A stretch of DNA of 64,000 bases from Malacoraja senta (lineage: Eukaryota), in assembly GCA_038087875.1 (NCBI GenBank), contig CM075988.1:14820001-14884000 (forward strand). Reading direction: 5' to 3'. The notes under the pieces are model-generated. The model was not told the origin of the DNA, ran no database searches, and saw only the letters and a list, made by a program, of their open reading frames with translations. The translations under genes were made by a program, and so were the position numbers. Positions 5,976 through 63,735 of this stretch are shown piece after piece (the first letter of the stretch is position 1; every line of letters starts with the position of its first letter).

Positions 5976-8389
5976 TTGCAGTGTCCATGAGGCCAGAAGC
6001 AATCCAAAATATAATCCTTTATCAGTTCATTCATTTTAATTCTGCAAACTTTGCAGGTGTAACAGAGTCTCAGGATGAGTTGTCAAGATCTTGACAGCTC
6101 CATTTCACAAGGATTGTCATTAATCTCTATAAGATAAGGAGCTCCAATTAATTCTTACACTCTTTACATTTAGTTGTTTTAATTTTCAACAAAATTATGT
6201 ACATTTCATGTGTAATCCATGAAACAATTTCCCAGAAACAATTTAACATGTTTCCCAGAAGAAGGCTCACATTAAGAGCAAACAAATCTAAATGGAGACA
6301 GTGCTGTTGGGATGGAAGTCAGCTTTCATTGTGCCCAAGAGCAAGAATGAATTCAGGAGCATTGTACCTCCAAAAATTGGAACAGCCCCTTCTTCGCAAG
6401 TCATTAGAAGACCAAAACTGACAGCAGGCCTTTTCTGCAAGCAACTATTGGGCCTGATGTCTACCTTGGATATCCTGTGGCAGCAGCATGAAGGTTGTTC
6501 CCTGGACTATTCAGGGGGAAAAACACTGTCCTGAATGATCTTTTAAGCCAAAATGTCTGTGTGTGATGAAATGTTACCTCAATCCATGCATACTGTGAGC
6601 TGTGTGAAATCAGTAGTGCTGAACTACTATCTACCTCTTTGGTACCTTCGGACTATCCTTGATCGGACTTTGCTGGCTTTGCTTTGACATTTAACATTCA
6701 GAATCTATACTTTGTTCACTTTTCTTGATTAAGGATAACTTTCCACAATCTGAACCATGAGTGACAGTATGCCTCACTGTGCTTTATGGATCAAAATCAA
6801 TACAGTGCATCTATTTATCACTCCTGGCCCCACTGTGCCTTTTGCGTCTTCAACCTAGGATTCATGGAGCTTTACATAGCTTTGATCTTTACCAAGATTT
6901 ATACAAAACTATTCTCATCTTTATGATGAACAAGGACACATACATCAGTGGTTGCTGCCATTTGCTTGGAAAGTTATCTCTTTCACTGATCTGTTGCTAA
7001 TCAATCAATCCCACAAACCACGGTTCCTTCATAAAATAGGTTTCTATGTTAATGTTTCAGCGCATTATTTAACCTGTTATCTTTATCTTCGACTTTTTGC
7101 ACTAGGCCTTGGCCATTTCTCTGTTTCGGAATCAGGTAAGGAACATCTTATGTAAATGTAATGTAAATGTAAAAGTACCCAATATATGTATTTGTAAAAG
7201 TAACCCAATGGTTTCTCATTCTAACAGGTTAGCCCTAAACCTGATTCAAGAGAGATACATTTCTAAACATTTCTCTTCCATGCTCCATACACAGAACTTT
7301 TCCTGTACTGTACAGTTCAGATTATAACTGGTGATAAAGCCAAATTTTTTCTTCAAGATAAGATGGCAATCTGAGTATGTTTGTTCCCCGAGATGACCAC
7401 TAATGATCCCCTGGAACTATTTGTTGATTTCCAAGTGTCCCTGGATAAGATTTATTCTTCAATTTCCATCACTAAAATGGATTAGCTGGTTATTAACAAA
7501 AAGGCGATTAGTGGAAGCTGGCTGTGTAGAAATGAGTTTCCAAGGTTTATATTATAGCAGTAACTACACTCAAGGTATTTCAATTGATATAAGGTTCTCT
7601 GGGATGTCTTAAAGCTAAAATAGGTGCAATTTGAATGCAAATCTTTTGTGATTTGAATGTTAAACCATCTAACTGGTAGCTGCCTATTGGCGTATTCATC
7701 AATAGATGGACCTGAAAAATTTCAATGAGACCAGTCTTTGGATCTTTGGAATTGTACATTGCGAGTTAGAATAGTGCTAATCAATCTTCACAATTTGGAT
7801 TAAAATCCAGCCAGAACCAAGTTATAGGCGACCCTCCTCATTCTGCTGCCTTTATATGAAGTCAATCTTAAAAGACCAAAACTAATGTGCAGAGTTTAAA
7901 TAATGTGATAAAACCATGTTCAATTTTGCTATTAATTTGAGACGGTAAGTAGCAAGTCCATGTGCATGATACTCGAAATTGAGCTAGTAATTCAAGAAAA
8001 GCCCAATTTGAAATCTTCAAATTTAACAAGCTTTCCTTTGATAAAGATGAAAGTCATTGCTCGCAGTGACTTGAACTACTTCCCATTTCTGAATTCCACA
8101 GCTGCTGGCTATTGGCAGCTGGGAGTCAGCAGAGATACTTTTATTCTGCTGAATACGTTTCAGCCAAAAGTTAAATTCCAGCCTCTACTACCATACAGCA
8201 CTTCAAATCCACTTTATAAATGGATAGGCCTTAAATTAATGTTCCTGAATTCATTCTACATTACTCATTATGTCTGGCTGAAGCAGTTCAACATTTTTTA
8301 CACAGAATAGCAGAGTTTCTGCACCCACCGCGTAGGTTTTCCTGATCTTTAATTGCTTACATTAATTTTCCTCCATCCAAAGCAATGCT

Positions 8390-8537
8390 TCTTCTTATCG
8401 AGTCCACACACAGGATTAGAAGTTGTTCAGCCAGAGCTGAACACACTTCTCGGCATCTGCTTCTTGTGCTTCTTGTGCGTGGTGTGGAAAGATTGGTGGA
8501 AACAGGGCCGCGACGTGAACGCTCTTTCCTTGACCCC
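8390..8537 (-). mobile_element. Short ribozyme-headed retroposon, copy 1
   Basis: 148 bp with TSD aaagcaatgct (8379-8389 and 8538-8548) and an (AAG)n 3' tail. A second copy lies at 63558-63735. Confidence 0.85.
8486..8537 (-). ncRNA. Minimal HDV-like (CPEB3-type) self-cleaving ribozyme, predicted
   Basis: GGGGUC AA GGAAAGA GCG UUCACGU CGC GGCCCU GU UUCCA CCAA UCUUUCC. P1, P2, P3 and L3 can all be paired, with a G1-U wobble. P4 is essentially absent. Confidence 0.8.
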
Positions 8538-8619
8538 AAAGCAATGCTGAAAAACAGGGACAAATGGGCATCACTATCACTTCACGCTGAAGATGAAAAT
8601 ACTTTTTACAATGCCGAGA

Positions 8620-9075
8620 GTACAGAGAAGATTTACGAGAATATCGCCAGGCTACTGGGCCTGAGCTGTAGGGAGAGATTGGACAAGGTAGGAGTTTATT
8701 CCTTGGAAGCTGAGGTGGGTATAAAATCATGAGGGGAATTGATAGGGTCAATGCACAAAGTATTTTACCCAGGGTAGAGGAATCAAAATCAAAGGACATA
8801 GGTTGAAGGTGAGAGGGGAAAGATTTAATATGAACCTGAGGGGCAACCTTTTCACTCAGAGGGTGCTGGGTATATGGAATGAGTTGCCAGAGATCTGTGT
8901 TGAGGCAGGTACAATAACAAAATTGAAAAGACACTTGACAGGTGCATGGATAGGAAACGTTTAGATGGATATGGCCCAAATGCAGGCAAATAGGACTCAA
9001 TTAGATGGGGCACCTTGGATGGCATGGGAGAGCTGGGCTGAAGAGCCTGTTTCCTTGCTGTATGACTATGACTCT
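8620..9075 (+). mobile_element. CR1 LINE 3' fragment
   Basis: RERLDKVGVYSLE-like translation, GHRLKV region, (TATGAC)n tail. Confidence 0.8.
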
Positions 9076-61168: not shown

Positions 61169-62844
61169 TCTATATTACTAAAAGTAAGATCTTGACCGCT
61201 TTTGGCTCGCTGTGCTGTGATTTCCGAGAGAACTCCGCCACCTACGGCCGTCATTTTTGGCCACCTTGCTCAGAGCCCCCCTCCGCCTGCCAGGACTGGA
61301 GGATTTTTCCCATCGATGAACAATCAGAGATATATTCATGTTTTTAAAAATTTTGCCATTCTCTCTGCTGCCCCTGCTGGTGGGAGGGGGGAGGGACTAT
61401 AACACCCGGAAGTGGTGTGCCTCACTCAGTCTCTGCAAGATGGAGGAACTGAGAGGTTCACGTCTCTCTGAGCTCTGAATAACACTGAACACATGTCTAC
61501 TCAACAGTGAGTGCCCTTAATGTGGTTTGAAAATGAAAATATGGTTGGTTTGAAGTAAAAAGGCAGTGCAAAGAGTTGTTTGGTTTTTTTGGGGGTTGAA
61601 GTAAAAAGGCAGTGCAAATGGTTGTTTGGGGGGGGGGTTGGGGTTGAAGTAAAAAGGCAGTGCAAATGGTTGTTTGGGGGGTTTTGGGGTTGAAGTAAAA
61701 AGGCAGTGCAAATGGTTGTTTGGGGGGGAGGGTTTGGGTTGAAGTAAAAAGGCAGTGCAAATGGTTGTTTGGGGGGGTTTTGGGTTGAAGTAAAAAGGCA
61801 GTGCAAATGGTTGTTTGGGGGGTTTGGGGGTTGAAGTAAAAAGGCAGTGCAAATGGTTGTTCGGGGGGGTTTGGGTTGAAGTAAAAAGGCAGTGCAAATG
61901 GTTGTTCAGGGGGGGTTTGGGTTGAAGTAAAAAGGCAGTGCAAATGGTTGTTTGGGGGGGGGTTGGGTTGAAGTAAAAAGGCAGTGCAAATGGTTGTTTG
62001 GGGGGGGTTGGGTTGAAGTAAAAAGGCAGTGCAAATGGTTGTTTGGTTTTTTTGGGGGTTGAAGTAAAAAGGCAGTGCAAATGGTTGTTTGGGGGGGGGT
62101 TTGGATTGAAGTAAAAAGGCAGTGCAAATGGTTGTTTGGGGGGGGTGGGTTGAAGTAAAAAGGCAGTGCAAATGGTTGTTTGGGGGGGTGGGTTGAAGTA
62201 AAAAGGCAGTGCAAATGGTTGTTTGTTTTTTTTTGGGGTTGAAGTAAAAAGGCAGTGCAAATGGATGTTGGGGGGGTTTGGGTTGAAGTAAAAAGGAAGT
62301 GCAAATGGTTGTTTGGGGGGGGTGTTGGGTTGAAGTAAAAGGCAGTGCAAATGGTTGTTTGGCTAAACTTGACAACTTCCTGTTTGCACTACATTGATTT
62401 TAGATGAACCTGAATTTGGTGGCCTTGCACCCTGCTTGAAGTGGTATGAAACTGCACTTGAAATTTGTGGCCTTGCACCCTGCTTGAAATGGTAGGAAAA
62501 TGGATTTGAATTTGGTGCCCTAGCACTCCGCTTGAAATGTAATTTCAAGGAATAGCCGTGAGTCAACTGCCAGCCCACCAGCCGTGAGTGAGCTGCCAGC
62601 ACATCAAGCTTCAGGGACTGAGCTGCCACCCCAAGAATCCATTTGGCCCACAATGTCCATACTAACCCTCTGGAGACCAGTAGTCCCTGCAGCCAACAAC
62701 ACCCATACCAGCACTCCAGAAAGCCCCCGCCCCCCCCCCCCCCACTGGCCACCAATATTGGAATTGGTGGAGAGGTGGAATATTGCGTTGGGGGACCAGC
62801 CCTCCCGTGTGAACATGGGACCCAACGGGTCCCACTTAGTCTAG
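61169..62844 (+). mobile_element. Complete non-autonomous Helitron with a G-rich satellite
   Basis: A|TC start, hairpin tgggaccc-aac-gggtccca (62816-62834), CTAG|T end, no TSD. Inserted into a minus-strand Rex1-type 3' tail. Confidence 0.9.
61545..62362. repeat. About 44-bp G-rich minisatellite, roughly 18 copies
   Basis: Unit gttgaagtaaaaaggcagtgcaaatggttgttt(g)n-ttggg. Confidence 0.97.
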
Positions 62845-63557: not shown

Positions 63558-63735
63558 CTTCTTATCGAGTCCACTTCACAAGATAGAAATTATTCAGCCA
63601 GAGCTGAACATACTTCTCGGCATCTGCATACAATGGTGTCAGTCTTGCTTCTTGTGCTTCTTGTGCTTCTTGTGCGTGGTGGTGGGAAGATTGGTGGAAA
63701 CAGGGCCGCGACGTGAACGCTCTTTCCTTGACCCC
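63558..63735 (-). mobile_element. Short ribozyme-headed retroposon, copy 2
   Basis: 178 bp with the same 5' start as copy 1, an imperfect TSD a(t/c)ctttaatt (63548-63557 and 63737-63746) and an AAG tail. Confidence 0.85.
63684..63735 (-). ncRNA. Minimal HDV-like ribozyme, predicted (copy 2)
   Basis: Identical to copy 1 except for one P2 mismatch (UCUUCCC). Confidence 0.75.

What the first reader, a model, noticed from the sequence alone, without database searches (positions are those of the whole stretch)
8379..8548. Promoterless ribozyme-SINE family: HDV head plus LINE-like 3' stem-loop and (AAG)n tail
Seen: two copies 55 kb apart have different TSDs and identical 5' starts. They have no tRNA-type A/B-box head, a (CACAAGAAG)n middle, a 3' hairpin GAAGU(G)UGUUCAGC-UCUG-GCUGAACAACUUC and a GGACUCGAU(AAG)n end. 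The 3' part translates as ...ADAEKCVQLWLNNF*, reminiscent of RTE/RTEX ORF C-termini. Inference: a non-autonomous element that needs no promoter. It would be released from host read-through transcripts by self-cleavage and mobilised by an RTE/RTEX-type partner, analogous to R2-derived short internally deleted elements. Two copies in 64 kb suggest a high copy number.
Basis: partly seen in the sequence, partly recalled or inferred. Interest (0 to 1): 0.88.

Follow-up and report, generated by a model that had tools for sequence, protein, structure and literature searches.

The report
Ribozyme-headed short retrotransposon, RTE-like origin
This is a roughly 160-base, 3,000-copy non-autonomous retrotransposon in a cartilaginous-fish genome whose first 52 bases fold as a stripped-down HDV-like self-cleaving ribozyme of the same sequence type as the mammalian CPEB3 ribozyme, which is reported as unknown outside mammals.

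Summary
Two copies lie on the minus strand (8391-8537 and 63558-63735). They have different target-site duplications, the same 5' start, a (CACAAGAAG)n middle, a 3' hairpin and a GGACTCGATAAG(AAG)n end.

The own genome (1.94 Gb) holds about 3,000 copies. Of 68 unique copies examined, 57 begin with GGGGTC. Target-site duplications were found in 52 of 61 copies, and in 43 of those 52 they abut G1, the predicted cleavage site.

The head folds as an HDV-like double pseudoknot without P4. It matches only Rfam's CPEB3-ribozyme model: 26.9 bits here, below the 35-bit threshold, and up to 43.7 bits in other copies.

The same genome carries 3.1-kb single-ORF (endonuclease plus reverse transcriptase) RTE-like LINEs. 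Their heads are full ribozymes with P4 (up to 64 bits) and their tails end in GACACGAAAAG(AAG)n. Covariation among five element families supports the fold.

No LINE with the SINE's exact tail was found. Self-cleavage and promoter independence were not tested.

The class is known: bipartite non-autonomous RTE derivatives. Two things look new: the P4-less ribozyme in a vertebrate element, and CPEB3-type ribozymes on LINE heads outside mammals.

The parts
8538..8548 (-). Upstream target-site duplication of copy 1 (AGCATTGCTTT). The next two bases, GG, are shared with the element's start.
   Evidence: the same 11-mer recurs at 8379-8389
8486..8537 (-). 52-nt P4-less HDV-like (CPEB3-type) ribozyme. 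G1 = 8537. P1 8537-8532 pairs with 8509-8504 and includes the G1-U wobble. P2 8529-8523 pairs with 8492-8486. P3 8522-8520 pairs with 8512-8510. L3 (UUCACGU) is 8519-8513. J1/4 (GU) is 8503-8502. A 6-nt linker at 8501-8496 stands in place of P4. J4/2 (CAA) is 8495-8493, with the putative catalytic C at 8495.
   Evidence: Rfam RF00622, 26.9 bits; hand fold; alignment and pair counts
8461..8485 (-). Middle part: ACACCACG then two CACAAGAAG units. It is the counterpart of the 5' UTR that follows the ribozyme in the LINE heads, which all begin 'CCAC...'.
8416..8460 (-). Remnant of a LINE ORF end, reading ADAEKCVQLWLNNF*.
   Evidence: positional alignment to the LINE-A 3' end
8419..8449 (-). 3' stem-loop: a 13-bp stem with one bulge and a UCUG loop.
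   Evidence: z -3.2
8391..8405 (-). Terminal motif GGACTCGATAAGAAG, i.e. GGACNCGANAAG plus the (AAG)n tail.
   Evidence: related tails GACACGAAAAG(AAG)n in LINE-A and GGACACGAAAAG(AAG)n in L046
8379..8389 (-). Downstream target-site duplication of copy 1.
63558..63735 (-). Copy 2 of the same family (178 nt). It has three CACAAGAAG units and a 30-nt longer middle. The TSD AATTAAAG lies at 63746-63739 and 63557-63550, with GTT inserted before G1.

Best explanation
The element is a bipartite (internally deleted) non-autonomous derivative of an RTE-like LINE. It keeps only the LINE's 5' UTR and the last 70 nt or so of its 3' end.

Structure:
- The first 52 nt form a minimal HDV-like self-cleaving ribozyme of the CPEB3 sequence type. 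P1, P1.1, P2 and P3 are intact, and a 6-nt linker replaces P4.
- The 3' part carries a stable hairpin, the motif GGACTCGATAAG and an (AAG)n tail.

Proposed mechanism (inferred):
1. A copy is transcribed as part of a longer host or read-through RNA.
2. The ribozyme cuts just 5' of G1, giving an RNA that starts with the intact ribozyme.
3. The reverse transcriptase/endonuclease of an RTE-like LINE recognises the 3' hairpin, terminal motif and tail.
4. It copies the RNA to its very end by target-primed reverse transcription, producing 7-15 bp target-site duplications.

What is shown by computation: the fold, its covariation, the precise 5' ends, the TSDs, the copy number, and the kinship with LINE heads and tails.

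What is inferred: self-cleavage itself, read-through transcription, and which LINE supplies the protein.
For: 1. Fold.
- RF00622 is the only Rfam family matched at E<=10.
- Other SINE copies exceed the 35-bit threshold. L084 scores 43.7 bits, and further copies score 40.4 and 37.4 bits.
- On an alignment of 10 natural ribozymes from five element families, 88.5% of 243 cells pair in the double-pseudoknot model. Slid controls give 36-44%.
- 13 of 29 pairs change on both sides, including 4 of the 7 P2 pairs, and 0 of 500 shuffles reach the observed values.
- The C aligned with the catalytic position is invariant.

2. The 5' ends sit at the cleavage site.
- 57 of 68 unique copies begin GGGGTC.
- TSDs were found in 52 of 61 copies, against 2 of 61 with mismatched flanks. 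In 43 of the 52 the TSD abuts G1.
- 19 of 20 sites chosen only by the 3' hairpin 31-mer carry the complete head.
- In contigs of 4 of 4 runs laid, unrelated flanks start at 8537/8538 and at 8388.

3. LINE kinship.
- RF00622 on the own genome gave 39 matches at or above 35 bits among 59 scored candidates, best 64.2 bits.
- LINE-A is about 3.13 kb and starts at G1 of an 84-nt ribozyme that has P4. It has one ORF of 940 aa up to the stop in the copy read, with Exo_endo_phos and RVT_1 domains.
- Its tail is GACACGAAAAG(AAG)n, found 213 times with a control count of 0.
- 5 LINE-A heads have such a tail 3.09-3.12 kb downstream on the same strand.
- The SINE 3' domain and the LINE-A 3' end align position for position: 49 versus 51 nt between 'GC.GAG/AAG..TGT' and the terminal motif.

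4. No pol III head.

5. Abundance. There are 2,996 matches to the hairpin 20-mer at up to 2 mismatches, with a control count of 1.

6. Precedent.
- Bipartite non-autonomous RTE LINEs that keep the 5' end, with a remark linking this to 5' ribozymes: PMC5786205, passages read.
- Minimal HDV-like ribozymes that lack P4: PMC10879173, passage read.
Against: - No LINE with the SINE's own 3' domain or its exact terminal 15-mer exists in this assembly. Patterns with negative context gave 11 and 8 hits. They look like SINE variants from the short matched strings; I fetched and read only two of the 11 (L088, a SINE variant; L089, a 5'-truncated copy) and none of the 8.
- LINE-A's tail differs at 3 of the 12 motif positions, and LINE-A has no comparable hairpin (z +0.25).
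- The window's own copy scores below Rfam's threshold (26.9 versus 35 bits).
- P4 is missing, and no activity assay exists for this sequence.
- Uniform 5' ends would also follow from a fixed transcription start.
- Contigs of two runs guessed to be RNA show SINE copies embedded in longer records. Contigs cannot show RNA ends, so this neither supports nor refutes cleavage.
- The copies examined were chosen by similarity or by exact words, so the divergence figures are biased low.
- LINE-A's placement in the RTE clade rests on architecture only.
Confidence: 0.75

Rival explanations
1. The head is only a relic of the parent LINE's ribozyme and became inactive when P4 was lost. The uniform 5' end comes from transcription that starts at G1, driven by an internal promoter in the head. 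This would resemble Pr77 of L1Tc/NARTc, where the same 77 nt act as both promoter and ribozyme.
For: - P4 is absent.
- The window's copy is below Rfam's threshold.
- Short elements are usually copied to their 5' end whatever makes that end.
- Precedent for a dual promoter/ribozyme head: PMC3383444, abstract seen in a listing.
Against: - P1, P2, P3, the P1.1 C-G pair, the G1-U wobble and the J4/2 C are all intact in the family's common form.
- Natural HDV-like ribozymes without P4 are described (PMC10879173).
- About 3,000 copies arose after the P4 loss, all keeping the head.
- The start coincides to the base with the cleavage site that the fold predicts, both in this family and in LINE-A.
Confidence: 0.15
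2. The element is a true ribozyme-headed SINE, but it is mobilised by a LINE of another clade. The candidate would be the abundant CR1-like LINEs of this genome. The resemblance to RTE-like tails would then be a leftover of its origin.
For: - No RTE-like LINE with the identical tail was found.
- CR1-like elements are abundant and lie next to or inside several copies.
Against: - The terminal motif GGACNCGANAAG(AAG)n is shared with at least two RTE-like tail types in the same genome.
- I recall that CR1-type tails look different, but I did not test this here.
- The SINE 3' domain aligns position for position with an RTE-like ORF end.
Confidence: 0.05
3. The HDV-like fold is a chance resemblance in an ordinary repeat.
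For: The window's copy is below the curated Rfam threshold, and I drew the pseudoknots by hand.
Against: - Sister copies and LINE heads score 35-64 bits.
- No match passed the cut-off in the 14 control genomes.
- Compensatory changes occur in P1, P2, P3 and P4 across families.
- Element starts coincide with the cleavage site.
Confidence: 0.02

Closest known systems
Bipartite non-autonomous RTE LINEs (RTE-N1_Lch and RTE-N2_Lch of the coelacanth, WALLSI3/RTESINE2, MAR4_MD), as described in PMC5786205 (passages read)
   Same: They consist only of the 5' end and the 3' end of an RTE-type LINE and have no pol III head. They keep the exact LINE 5' terminus, and that paper tentatively links this to 5' ribozymes.
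   Different: This element is shorter: about 160 nt against the 262-286 nt quoted there. The exact parent LINE was not found in this genome. The ribozyme has lost P4. Here the ribozyme is demonstrated by model score and covariation, whereas there it is only suggested. I could not compare with Repbase or Dfam, so an existing entry for this family cannot be excluded.
R2 SIDEs (short internally deleted elements), PMC3414825 (abstract seen)
   Same: A 5' HDV-like ribozyme plus the 3' protein-binding end of the parent LINE. The RNA is released from a co-transcript by self-cleavage.
   Different: R2 and its SIDEs insert site-specifically in 28S rDNA. This family is dispersed, with variable TSDs. It also belongs to a different LINE lineage, with an AP-type endonuclease.
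NARTc/L1Tc of Trypanosoma cruzi (Pr77/L1TcRz), PMC3383444 and PMC3185411 (abstracts seen)
   Same: A dispersed non-autonomous partner that shares a 5' HDV-like ribozyme with its LINE.
   Different: That head is also a proven promoter, which is untested here. The host is a protist, and the LINE clade (ingi/L1Tc) is different.
Mammalian CPEB3 ribozyme (Rfam RF00622)
   Same: The same sequence type. L3 (UUCACGU), P3 (GCG/CGC), CCCUGU and CGAAU are identical or nearly so. The LINE heads score 39-64 bits against a threshold of 35.
   Different: These are multi-copy and sit at retrotransposon 5' ends in a cartilaginous fish, so they are not orthologues of the single intronic locus in mammals. The SINE version lacks P4.
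Minimal HDV-like ribozymes and theta ribozymes (PMC10879173, passage read)
   Same: A double-pseudoknot core without the P4 domain.
   Different: Those come from metagenomes and gut phages, and the paper says their origin and function are largely open. This one sits in a vertebrate retrotransposon and has an evident role.

Membership tests
HDV-like (delta) self-cleaving ribozymes | Nested double pseudoknot with P1, P1.1, P2 and P3 (P4 is optional) | tested here: met
   Hand fold of 8486-8537(-). On alignment A2, 88.5% of 243 cells pair against 36-44% for slid controls, and 13 of 29 pairs change on both sides. P4 is absent in the SINE and present in the LINE heads.
HDV-like (delta) self-cleaving ribozymes | Cleavage site directly 5' of G1, which forms a G-U wobble closing P1 | tested here: met
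   G1 (8537) lies opposite U (8504). 57 of 68 copies start GGGGTC, and in 43 of 52 the TSD abuts G1. The rule that cleavage falls 5' of G1 is recalled from the literature on the family.
HDV-like (delta) self-cleaving ribozymes | Catalytic cytosine in J4/2 | tested here: met
   C at 8495 aligns with a column that is invariant in all 10 ribozymes. Its catalytic role is inferred by position.
HDV-like (delta) self-cleaving ribozymes | Self-scission activity | not testable with these tools
   No RNA run is kept as raw reads. Only contigs were available, and they cannot show RNA ends.
Rfam RF00622 CPEB3_ribozyme | Score at or above the curated gathering score of 35 bits | tested here: inconclusive
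   The window's copy scores 26.9 bits and is not met. Sister SINE copies score 37.4-43.7 bits and are met. LINE heads score 39.2-64.2 bits and are met.
Rfam RF00622 CPEB3_ribozyme | Single conserved locus in an intron of the mammalian CPEB3 gene | tested here: not met
   The matches are multi-copy and sit at the 5' ends of repeats. The host's nearest named relatives for a resident CR1-like ORF are skates and rays at 74-93% identity. This is the same sequence type but not an orthologue.
Bipartite non-autonomous LINE (RTE-N / SIDE type) | Made of the 5' end and the 3' end of one autonomous LINE | tested here: inconclusive
   Both ends are homologous to the ends of RTE-like LINEs in the same genome. 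No LINE carries the identical ends.
Bipartite non-autonomous LINE (RTE-N / SIDE type) | Dispersed insertions with target-site duplications and a LINE-type tail | tested here: met
   TSDs in 52 of 61 copies (median 11 bp, range 7-15) against 2 of 61 in the control. The tail is (AAG)n.
Canonical SINE (pol III head from tRNA, 5S or 7SL) | Head derived from a small RNA, with an internal pol III promoter | tested here: not met
   ARAGORN found 0 genes. Rfam found no family at gathering threshold in the window and only RF00622 at E<=10.
RTE clade of LINEs (for the related autonomous element LINE-A) | About 3.2 kb, a single ORF with an N-terminal AP endonuclease and an RT, very short UTRs and a short-repeat tail | tested here: met
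   About 3.13 kb, with an ORF of 940 aa carrying Exo_endo_phos and RVT_1. Relatives are 920-1,000 aa on contigs of 3.0-3.4 kb. The clade's definition is recalled. Placement on a tree with reference LINEs was not done.

The most novel reading that the evidence does not exclude
The mammalian CPEB3 ribozyme is not a mammalian invention. It would be the exapted 5' head of an RTE-type LINE that landed in the CPEB3 intron. The ribozyme-headed LINE and SINE families of this cartilaginous fish score up to 64 bits on the CPEB3 model, with identical L3, P3, J1/4 and J4/2. [quoted passage not shown] Within the same lineage, the SINE shows that a P4-less 'minimal' HDV-like ribozyme arose naturally in a vertebrate mobile element and still supported about 3,000 insertions.
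Probability: 0.4. Interest if true: 0.8.

Novelty: new variant of a known kind. Interest (0 to 1): 0.6.

Why it matters
- It documents at the sequence level how a LINE can shrink to a 160-nt parasite that needs no promoter of its own. Kojima (2018) suggested this for bipartite RTE derivatives but did not show the ribozyme.
- It places a natural P4-less HDV-like ribozyme in a vertebrate, in a setting where its role (making the 5' end) is evident. The origin and function of 'minimal' HDV-like ribozymes are described as open (PMC10879173).
- It shows that Rfam's 'mammalian' CPEB3 model finds dozens of above-threshold matches on LINE heads in a cartilaginous fish. This makes the origin of the CPEB3 ribozyme, and more loosely of the HDV ribozymes, testable by comparative genomics.
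- On the practical side, ribozyme scans and repeat annotation of fish genomes should expect thousands of such matches.

Tried and rejected
Search for the exact partner LINE:
- 20 sites with the ribozyme 39-mer but no tail in range. All were SINE copies with mutated tails or with other repeats inserted. L047 is a CR1-like insertion, and the rest of the SINE follows it.
- 20 sites chosen by the 3' 31-mer. 19 were full SINEs and 1 was 5'-truncated.
- Patterns requiring non-SINE bases upstream of the 3' domain (11 hits; two of them fetched and read) or upstream of the terminal 15-mer (8 hits, judged from the matched strings only). Only SINE variants appeared.
- Extending two copies of family E by 520 nt each. 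There was no ORF, and the two copies diverge after about 95 nt.

RNA evidence. No RNA holder was listed for the stretch. The four runs laid are contigs, which cannot show RNA ends. The pieces that touch the unique flank carry only 27-30 letters of the SINE, under the tool's 31-letter rule, so I make no claim of a shared orthologous insertion.

Other checks that gave nothing:
- The MFE fold of the whole element is not exceptional (z -1.84) and cannot show pseudoknots.
- The protein atlas gave only 'reverse transcriptase'.
- Earlier findings of this scan: none.

Literature limits:
- Ruminski et al. 2011, the paper on RTE ribozymes, is not held. What it shows for chordate RTEs could bear on novelty.
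- Repbase and Dfam could not be consulted.

Data limits. For that reason only one LINE-A copy was read end to end.
Full report
**What is there**

The finding lies on the minus strand. Copy 1 runs from G1 at 8537 down to 8391 and is flanked by the 11-bp duplication AGCATTGCTTT at 8548-8538 and 8389-8379. Copy 2 runs from 63735 to 63558 and is flanked by AATTAAAG. Three extra bases (GTT) lie between that duplication and G1.

The ribozyme core 18-mer occurs exactly twice in the window, and none of 100 shuffles gave a match. The terminal 15-mer GGACTCGATAAGAAG is exact at both copies. The copies align end to end apart from a 30-nt indel in the middle.

- There is no tRNA-like head. ARAGORN found 0 genes, and Rfam at gathering threshold found 0 matches in the window.
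- There are two or three CACAAGAAG units.
- The hairpin is stable: -19.9 kcal/mol, z -3.2, with 0 of 200 shuffles as good. Copy 2 keeps it through G-U pairs.
- The reading ADAEKCVQLWLNNF* is correct.

**The head is an HDV-like ribozyme without P4**

A permissive Rfam scan of 8300-8650 returned one family, RF00622 (the 'mammalian CPEB3 ribozyme'). It scored 26.9 bits against a curated threshold of 35, with E 3.3e-5.

Drawn by hand, the 52 nt give:
- P1: GGGGUC/GGCCCU, with the G1-U wobble
- P2: GGAAAGA/UCUUUCC
- P3: GCG/CGC
- L3: UUCACGU
- J1/4: GU
- J4/2: CAA
- a 6-nt linker (UUCCAC) where other members have P4

Other copies of the same family pass the threshold. L084 scores 43.7 bits, and others score 40.4 and 37.4 bits. 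At E<=10 no other ribozyme family of Rfam matches either these copies or the related LINE heads. Natural HDV-like ribozymes that lack P4 are on record from metagenomes and phages (PMC10879173, passage read).

**A large family that starts at the cleavage site**

The window is part of a 1.94-Gb assembly. A search with copy 1 gave 1,288 first-look candidates. All 40 that were scored were 87-100% identical.

Whole-genome pattern counts:

| Pattern | Matches | Control |
|---|---|---|
| 39-mer of the ribozyme, exact | 393 | 0 |
| 31-mer of the hairpin region, exact | 720 | 0 |
| Hairpin 20-mer, up to 2 mismatches | 2,996 | 1 |

So there are about 3,000 copies.

In the DNA I held there were 76 core matches. 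Four had heads too mutated for my fuzzy search. After dropping duplicated flanks, 68 unique copies remained. Of these:
- 57 of 68 begin GGGGTC.
- 61 have a recognisable tail.
- 52 of those 61 have a target-site duplication (median 11 bp, range 7-15). Pairing each upstream flank with another copy's downstream flank gave 2 of 61.
- In 43 of the 52 the duplication runs right up to G1. In 7 there is one extra base, and in 2 there are two.

The copies were chosen by similarity (30), by an exact ribozyme word (20) or by an exact hairpin word (20). Only the last set is unbiased with respect to the 5' end. In that set 19 of 20 carry the full head and 1 is 5'-truncated.

Contigs of all 4 runs laid on the region show unrelated flanks starting at 8537/8538 and at 8388. 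The start of the repeat unit therefore coincides with the position at which an HDV-like ribozyme cuts. That position, 5' of G1, is taken from knowledge of the family.

**Related autonomous elements**

Running RF00622 over the own genome gave 39 matches at or above 35 bits among 59 scored candidates, the best at 64.2 bits. None of the 14 control genomes had a match over the cut-off.

The best matches are 84-nt ribozymes with a full P4 at the very 5' end of one repeat, which I call LINE-A. About 40 nt after the ribozyme an ORF begins.

One copy read end to end (L072+L083) has these features:
- It is about 3.13 kb long.
- Its ORF is 940 aa up to an in-frame stop that precedes a Cys/His knuckle.
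- It carries Exo_endo_phos and RVT_1 domains.
- Its 3' end is ...CAAAGACACGAAAAG(AAG)n, followed by the same 10-bp duplication that precedes its head.

That tail occurs 213 times at up to 2 mismatches, with a control count of 0. Five LINE-A heads have it 3.09-3.12 kb downstream on the same strand.

The closest proteins elsewhere are 920-1,000 aa on contigs of 3.0-3.4 kb, from many animal phyla, at 50-69% identity. This architecture is that of the RTE clade. The clade's definition is recalled, and I built no tree.

Four more ribozyme-headed families (B to E) were seen. In all of them, as in the SINE, the 3' strand of P2 is followed by 'CCAC...'. Family E reads GUCAGG-UUUUCCA-CCUGCGAAUCC where the SINE reads GU-UUUCCA-CCAAUC. 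The SINE's linker therefore looks like the P4 loop left behind after the stem was lost.

**Covariation**

I aligned ten natural ribozymes: two from the SINE, one from LINE-A, two each from families B, C and E, and one from family D. I then counted pairs for the double-pseudoknot model that I drew.
- 88.5% of 243 cells form standard pairs, against 36-44% when partners are slid by 1-3 columns.
- 13 of 29 pairs change on both sides: 4 of 7 in P2, 2 of 7 in P1, 1 of 3 in P3 and 6 of 11 in P4.
- 0 of 500 shuffles reach the observed pairing or covariation score.

Three caveats apply. I derived the structure from these sequences. Several copies are decayed. Two apparent U-A pairs in P4 come from the SINE rows, which have no P4.

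**Is there a partner with the same ends?**

Not in this assembly, as far as I could see.
- None of 20 ribozyme sites lacking a tail in range leads into a LINE. They have mutated tails or carry other repeats inserted.
- Patterns demanding non-SINE bases just upstream of the 3' domain found 11 hits, and patterns demanding them upstream of the terminal 15-mer found 8. From the short matched strings these look like SINE variants or truncated copies. I fetched and read two of the 11 (L088 and L089) and none of the 8.

What does exist is a shared terminal motif:

| Element | Terminal motif |
|---|---|
| SINE | GGACTCGATAAG(AAG)n |
| LINE-A | AGACACGAAAAG(AAG)n |
| A third tail, in L046 | GGACACGAAAAG(AAG)n |

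The SINE's last 75 nt also align position for position with LINE-A's ORF end and 3' UTR. LINE-A has no hairpin like the SINE's.

In my biased samples the SINE copies differ from their majority base at 4.1% of sites, and the LINE-A heads at 1.1%. Either the parent LINE is extinct or unassembled, or a related RTE-like protein accepts the SINE's tail.

**Mechanism and rivals**

The reading I commit to, at about 0.75, has four steps:
1. A copy is transcribed within a longer RNA.
2. The RNA self-cleaves 5' of G1.
3. An RTE-like RT/endonuclease recognises the hairpin, motif and tail.
4. Target-primed reverse transcription runs to the very 5' end.

All four steps are inferred. The anatomy, the ends, the duplications and the kinship are shown.

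The main rival, at about 0.15, is that the P4-less head no longer cleaves and that G1 is a transcription start. The Pr77 head of L1Tc/NARTc is both a promoter and a ribozyme (abstracts). Mobilisation by another LINE clade (about 0.05) and chance resemblance (about 0.02) are weak.

**Comparison with what is known**

HDV-like ribozymes at the 5' ends of R2, R4, RTE and L1Tc elements are established. So are non-autonomous derivatives that keep them, namely R2 SIDEs and NARTc.

Kojima (PMC5786205, passages read) catalogued 'bipartite nonautonomous LINEs' of the RTE clade. He remarked that they usually keep the LINE's 5' end, perhaps because of a ribozyme. The element is therefore a member of a known class.

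Two things I did not find in print:

(a) A P4-less HDV-like ribozyme in a vertebrate retrotransposon.

(b) CPEB3-type ribozymes on LINE heads outside mammals. On this point:
- A whole-word search for 'CPEB3 ribozyme' together with 'RTE' found 1 paper, and it makes no such link.
- A search combining ribozyme and retrotransposon with skate or shark listed nothing relevant among the 12 papers shown of 52.

The host is a cartilaginous fish. The nearest named relatives of a resident CR1-like ORF are skates and rays at 74-93% identity.

The limits on this novelty claim are that Ruminski et al. 2011 is not held and that Repbase, Dfam and Rfam's own full hit lists could not be consulted.

**Verdict**

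I rate the novelty as a new variant of a known kind.

The boldest reading still open is that the mammalian CPEB3 ribozyme is an exapted RTE head, with these fish elements as its surviving relatives. I put that at about 0.4.

Noticed in passing
68 SINE copies in loci L001-L070, L084-L088 and the window: The base just before G1 is T in 44 of 68 copies, against 28% T in the DNA held. In the 43 copies where the TSD abuts G1 this base belongs to the duplicated target. Several copies share a further 1-2 bases (G, GG) with the element's start. This points to a preference at second-strand joining, such as microhomology or an untemplated A on the cDNA end.
   Followed up: partly
L081 (G000:C8:936115-939198), minus strand, just upstream of a LINE-A head: Five or six tandem copies of a 26-nt piece of the ribozyme's 5' half (ATCAAGGTAGAAGCGTTCACGTCGCG) precede an otherwise normal LINE-A copy. 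This may reflect slippage or template jumping between the two P1 strands at the RNA's 5' end.
   Followed up: no
L075, L079 (family B); L082, L086, L095 (family C); L090 (family D); L092, L094 (family E): At least four further repeat families in the same genome begin with CPEB3-type ribozymes that have P4 (39-60 bits). Family C is the closest in sequence to the mammalian consensus. What follows the heads was not worked out, so they may be LINEs or short elements.
   Followed up: partly
window 61546-62362 and 62413-62539: A tandem array of a 46-nt unit (17.8 copies, 87% matches) with variable G-runs, and next to it 2.6 copies of a 48-nt unit.
   Followed up: no
window about 8618-8800; also L022, L033, L047: Fragments of an abundant CR1-like LINE (RT ...YLDFQKAF..., C-terminus ...LGLYSLEFRRLRGDLIETYKI...) lie beside copy 1 and inside some SINE copies. 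In L047 a 5'-truncated CR1-like copy is inserted at position ~62 of a SINE.
   Followed up: partly
L029/L030 (C1:275.916 and 275.926 Mb), L040/L041 (C1:98.71 and 98.84 Mb), L066/L067 (C1:60.52 and 60.64 Mb): Pairs of SINE copies with identical flanks lie 10-130 kb apart. These are segmental duplications (or assembly duplicates) that carry the element. Each pair was counted once in the tallies.
   Followed up: no
proteins P0003-P0122: Relatives of the LINE-A protein at 50-69% identity turn up in aphids, psyllids, moths, crabs, sea urchins, a starfish, amphioxus, an anole and notothenioid fish. That is unusually even for a LINE and recalls the cross-phylum similarity of RTE 5' regions noted in PMC5786205.
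   Followed up: no
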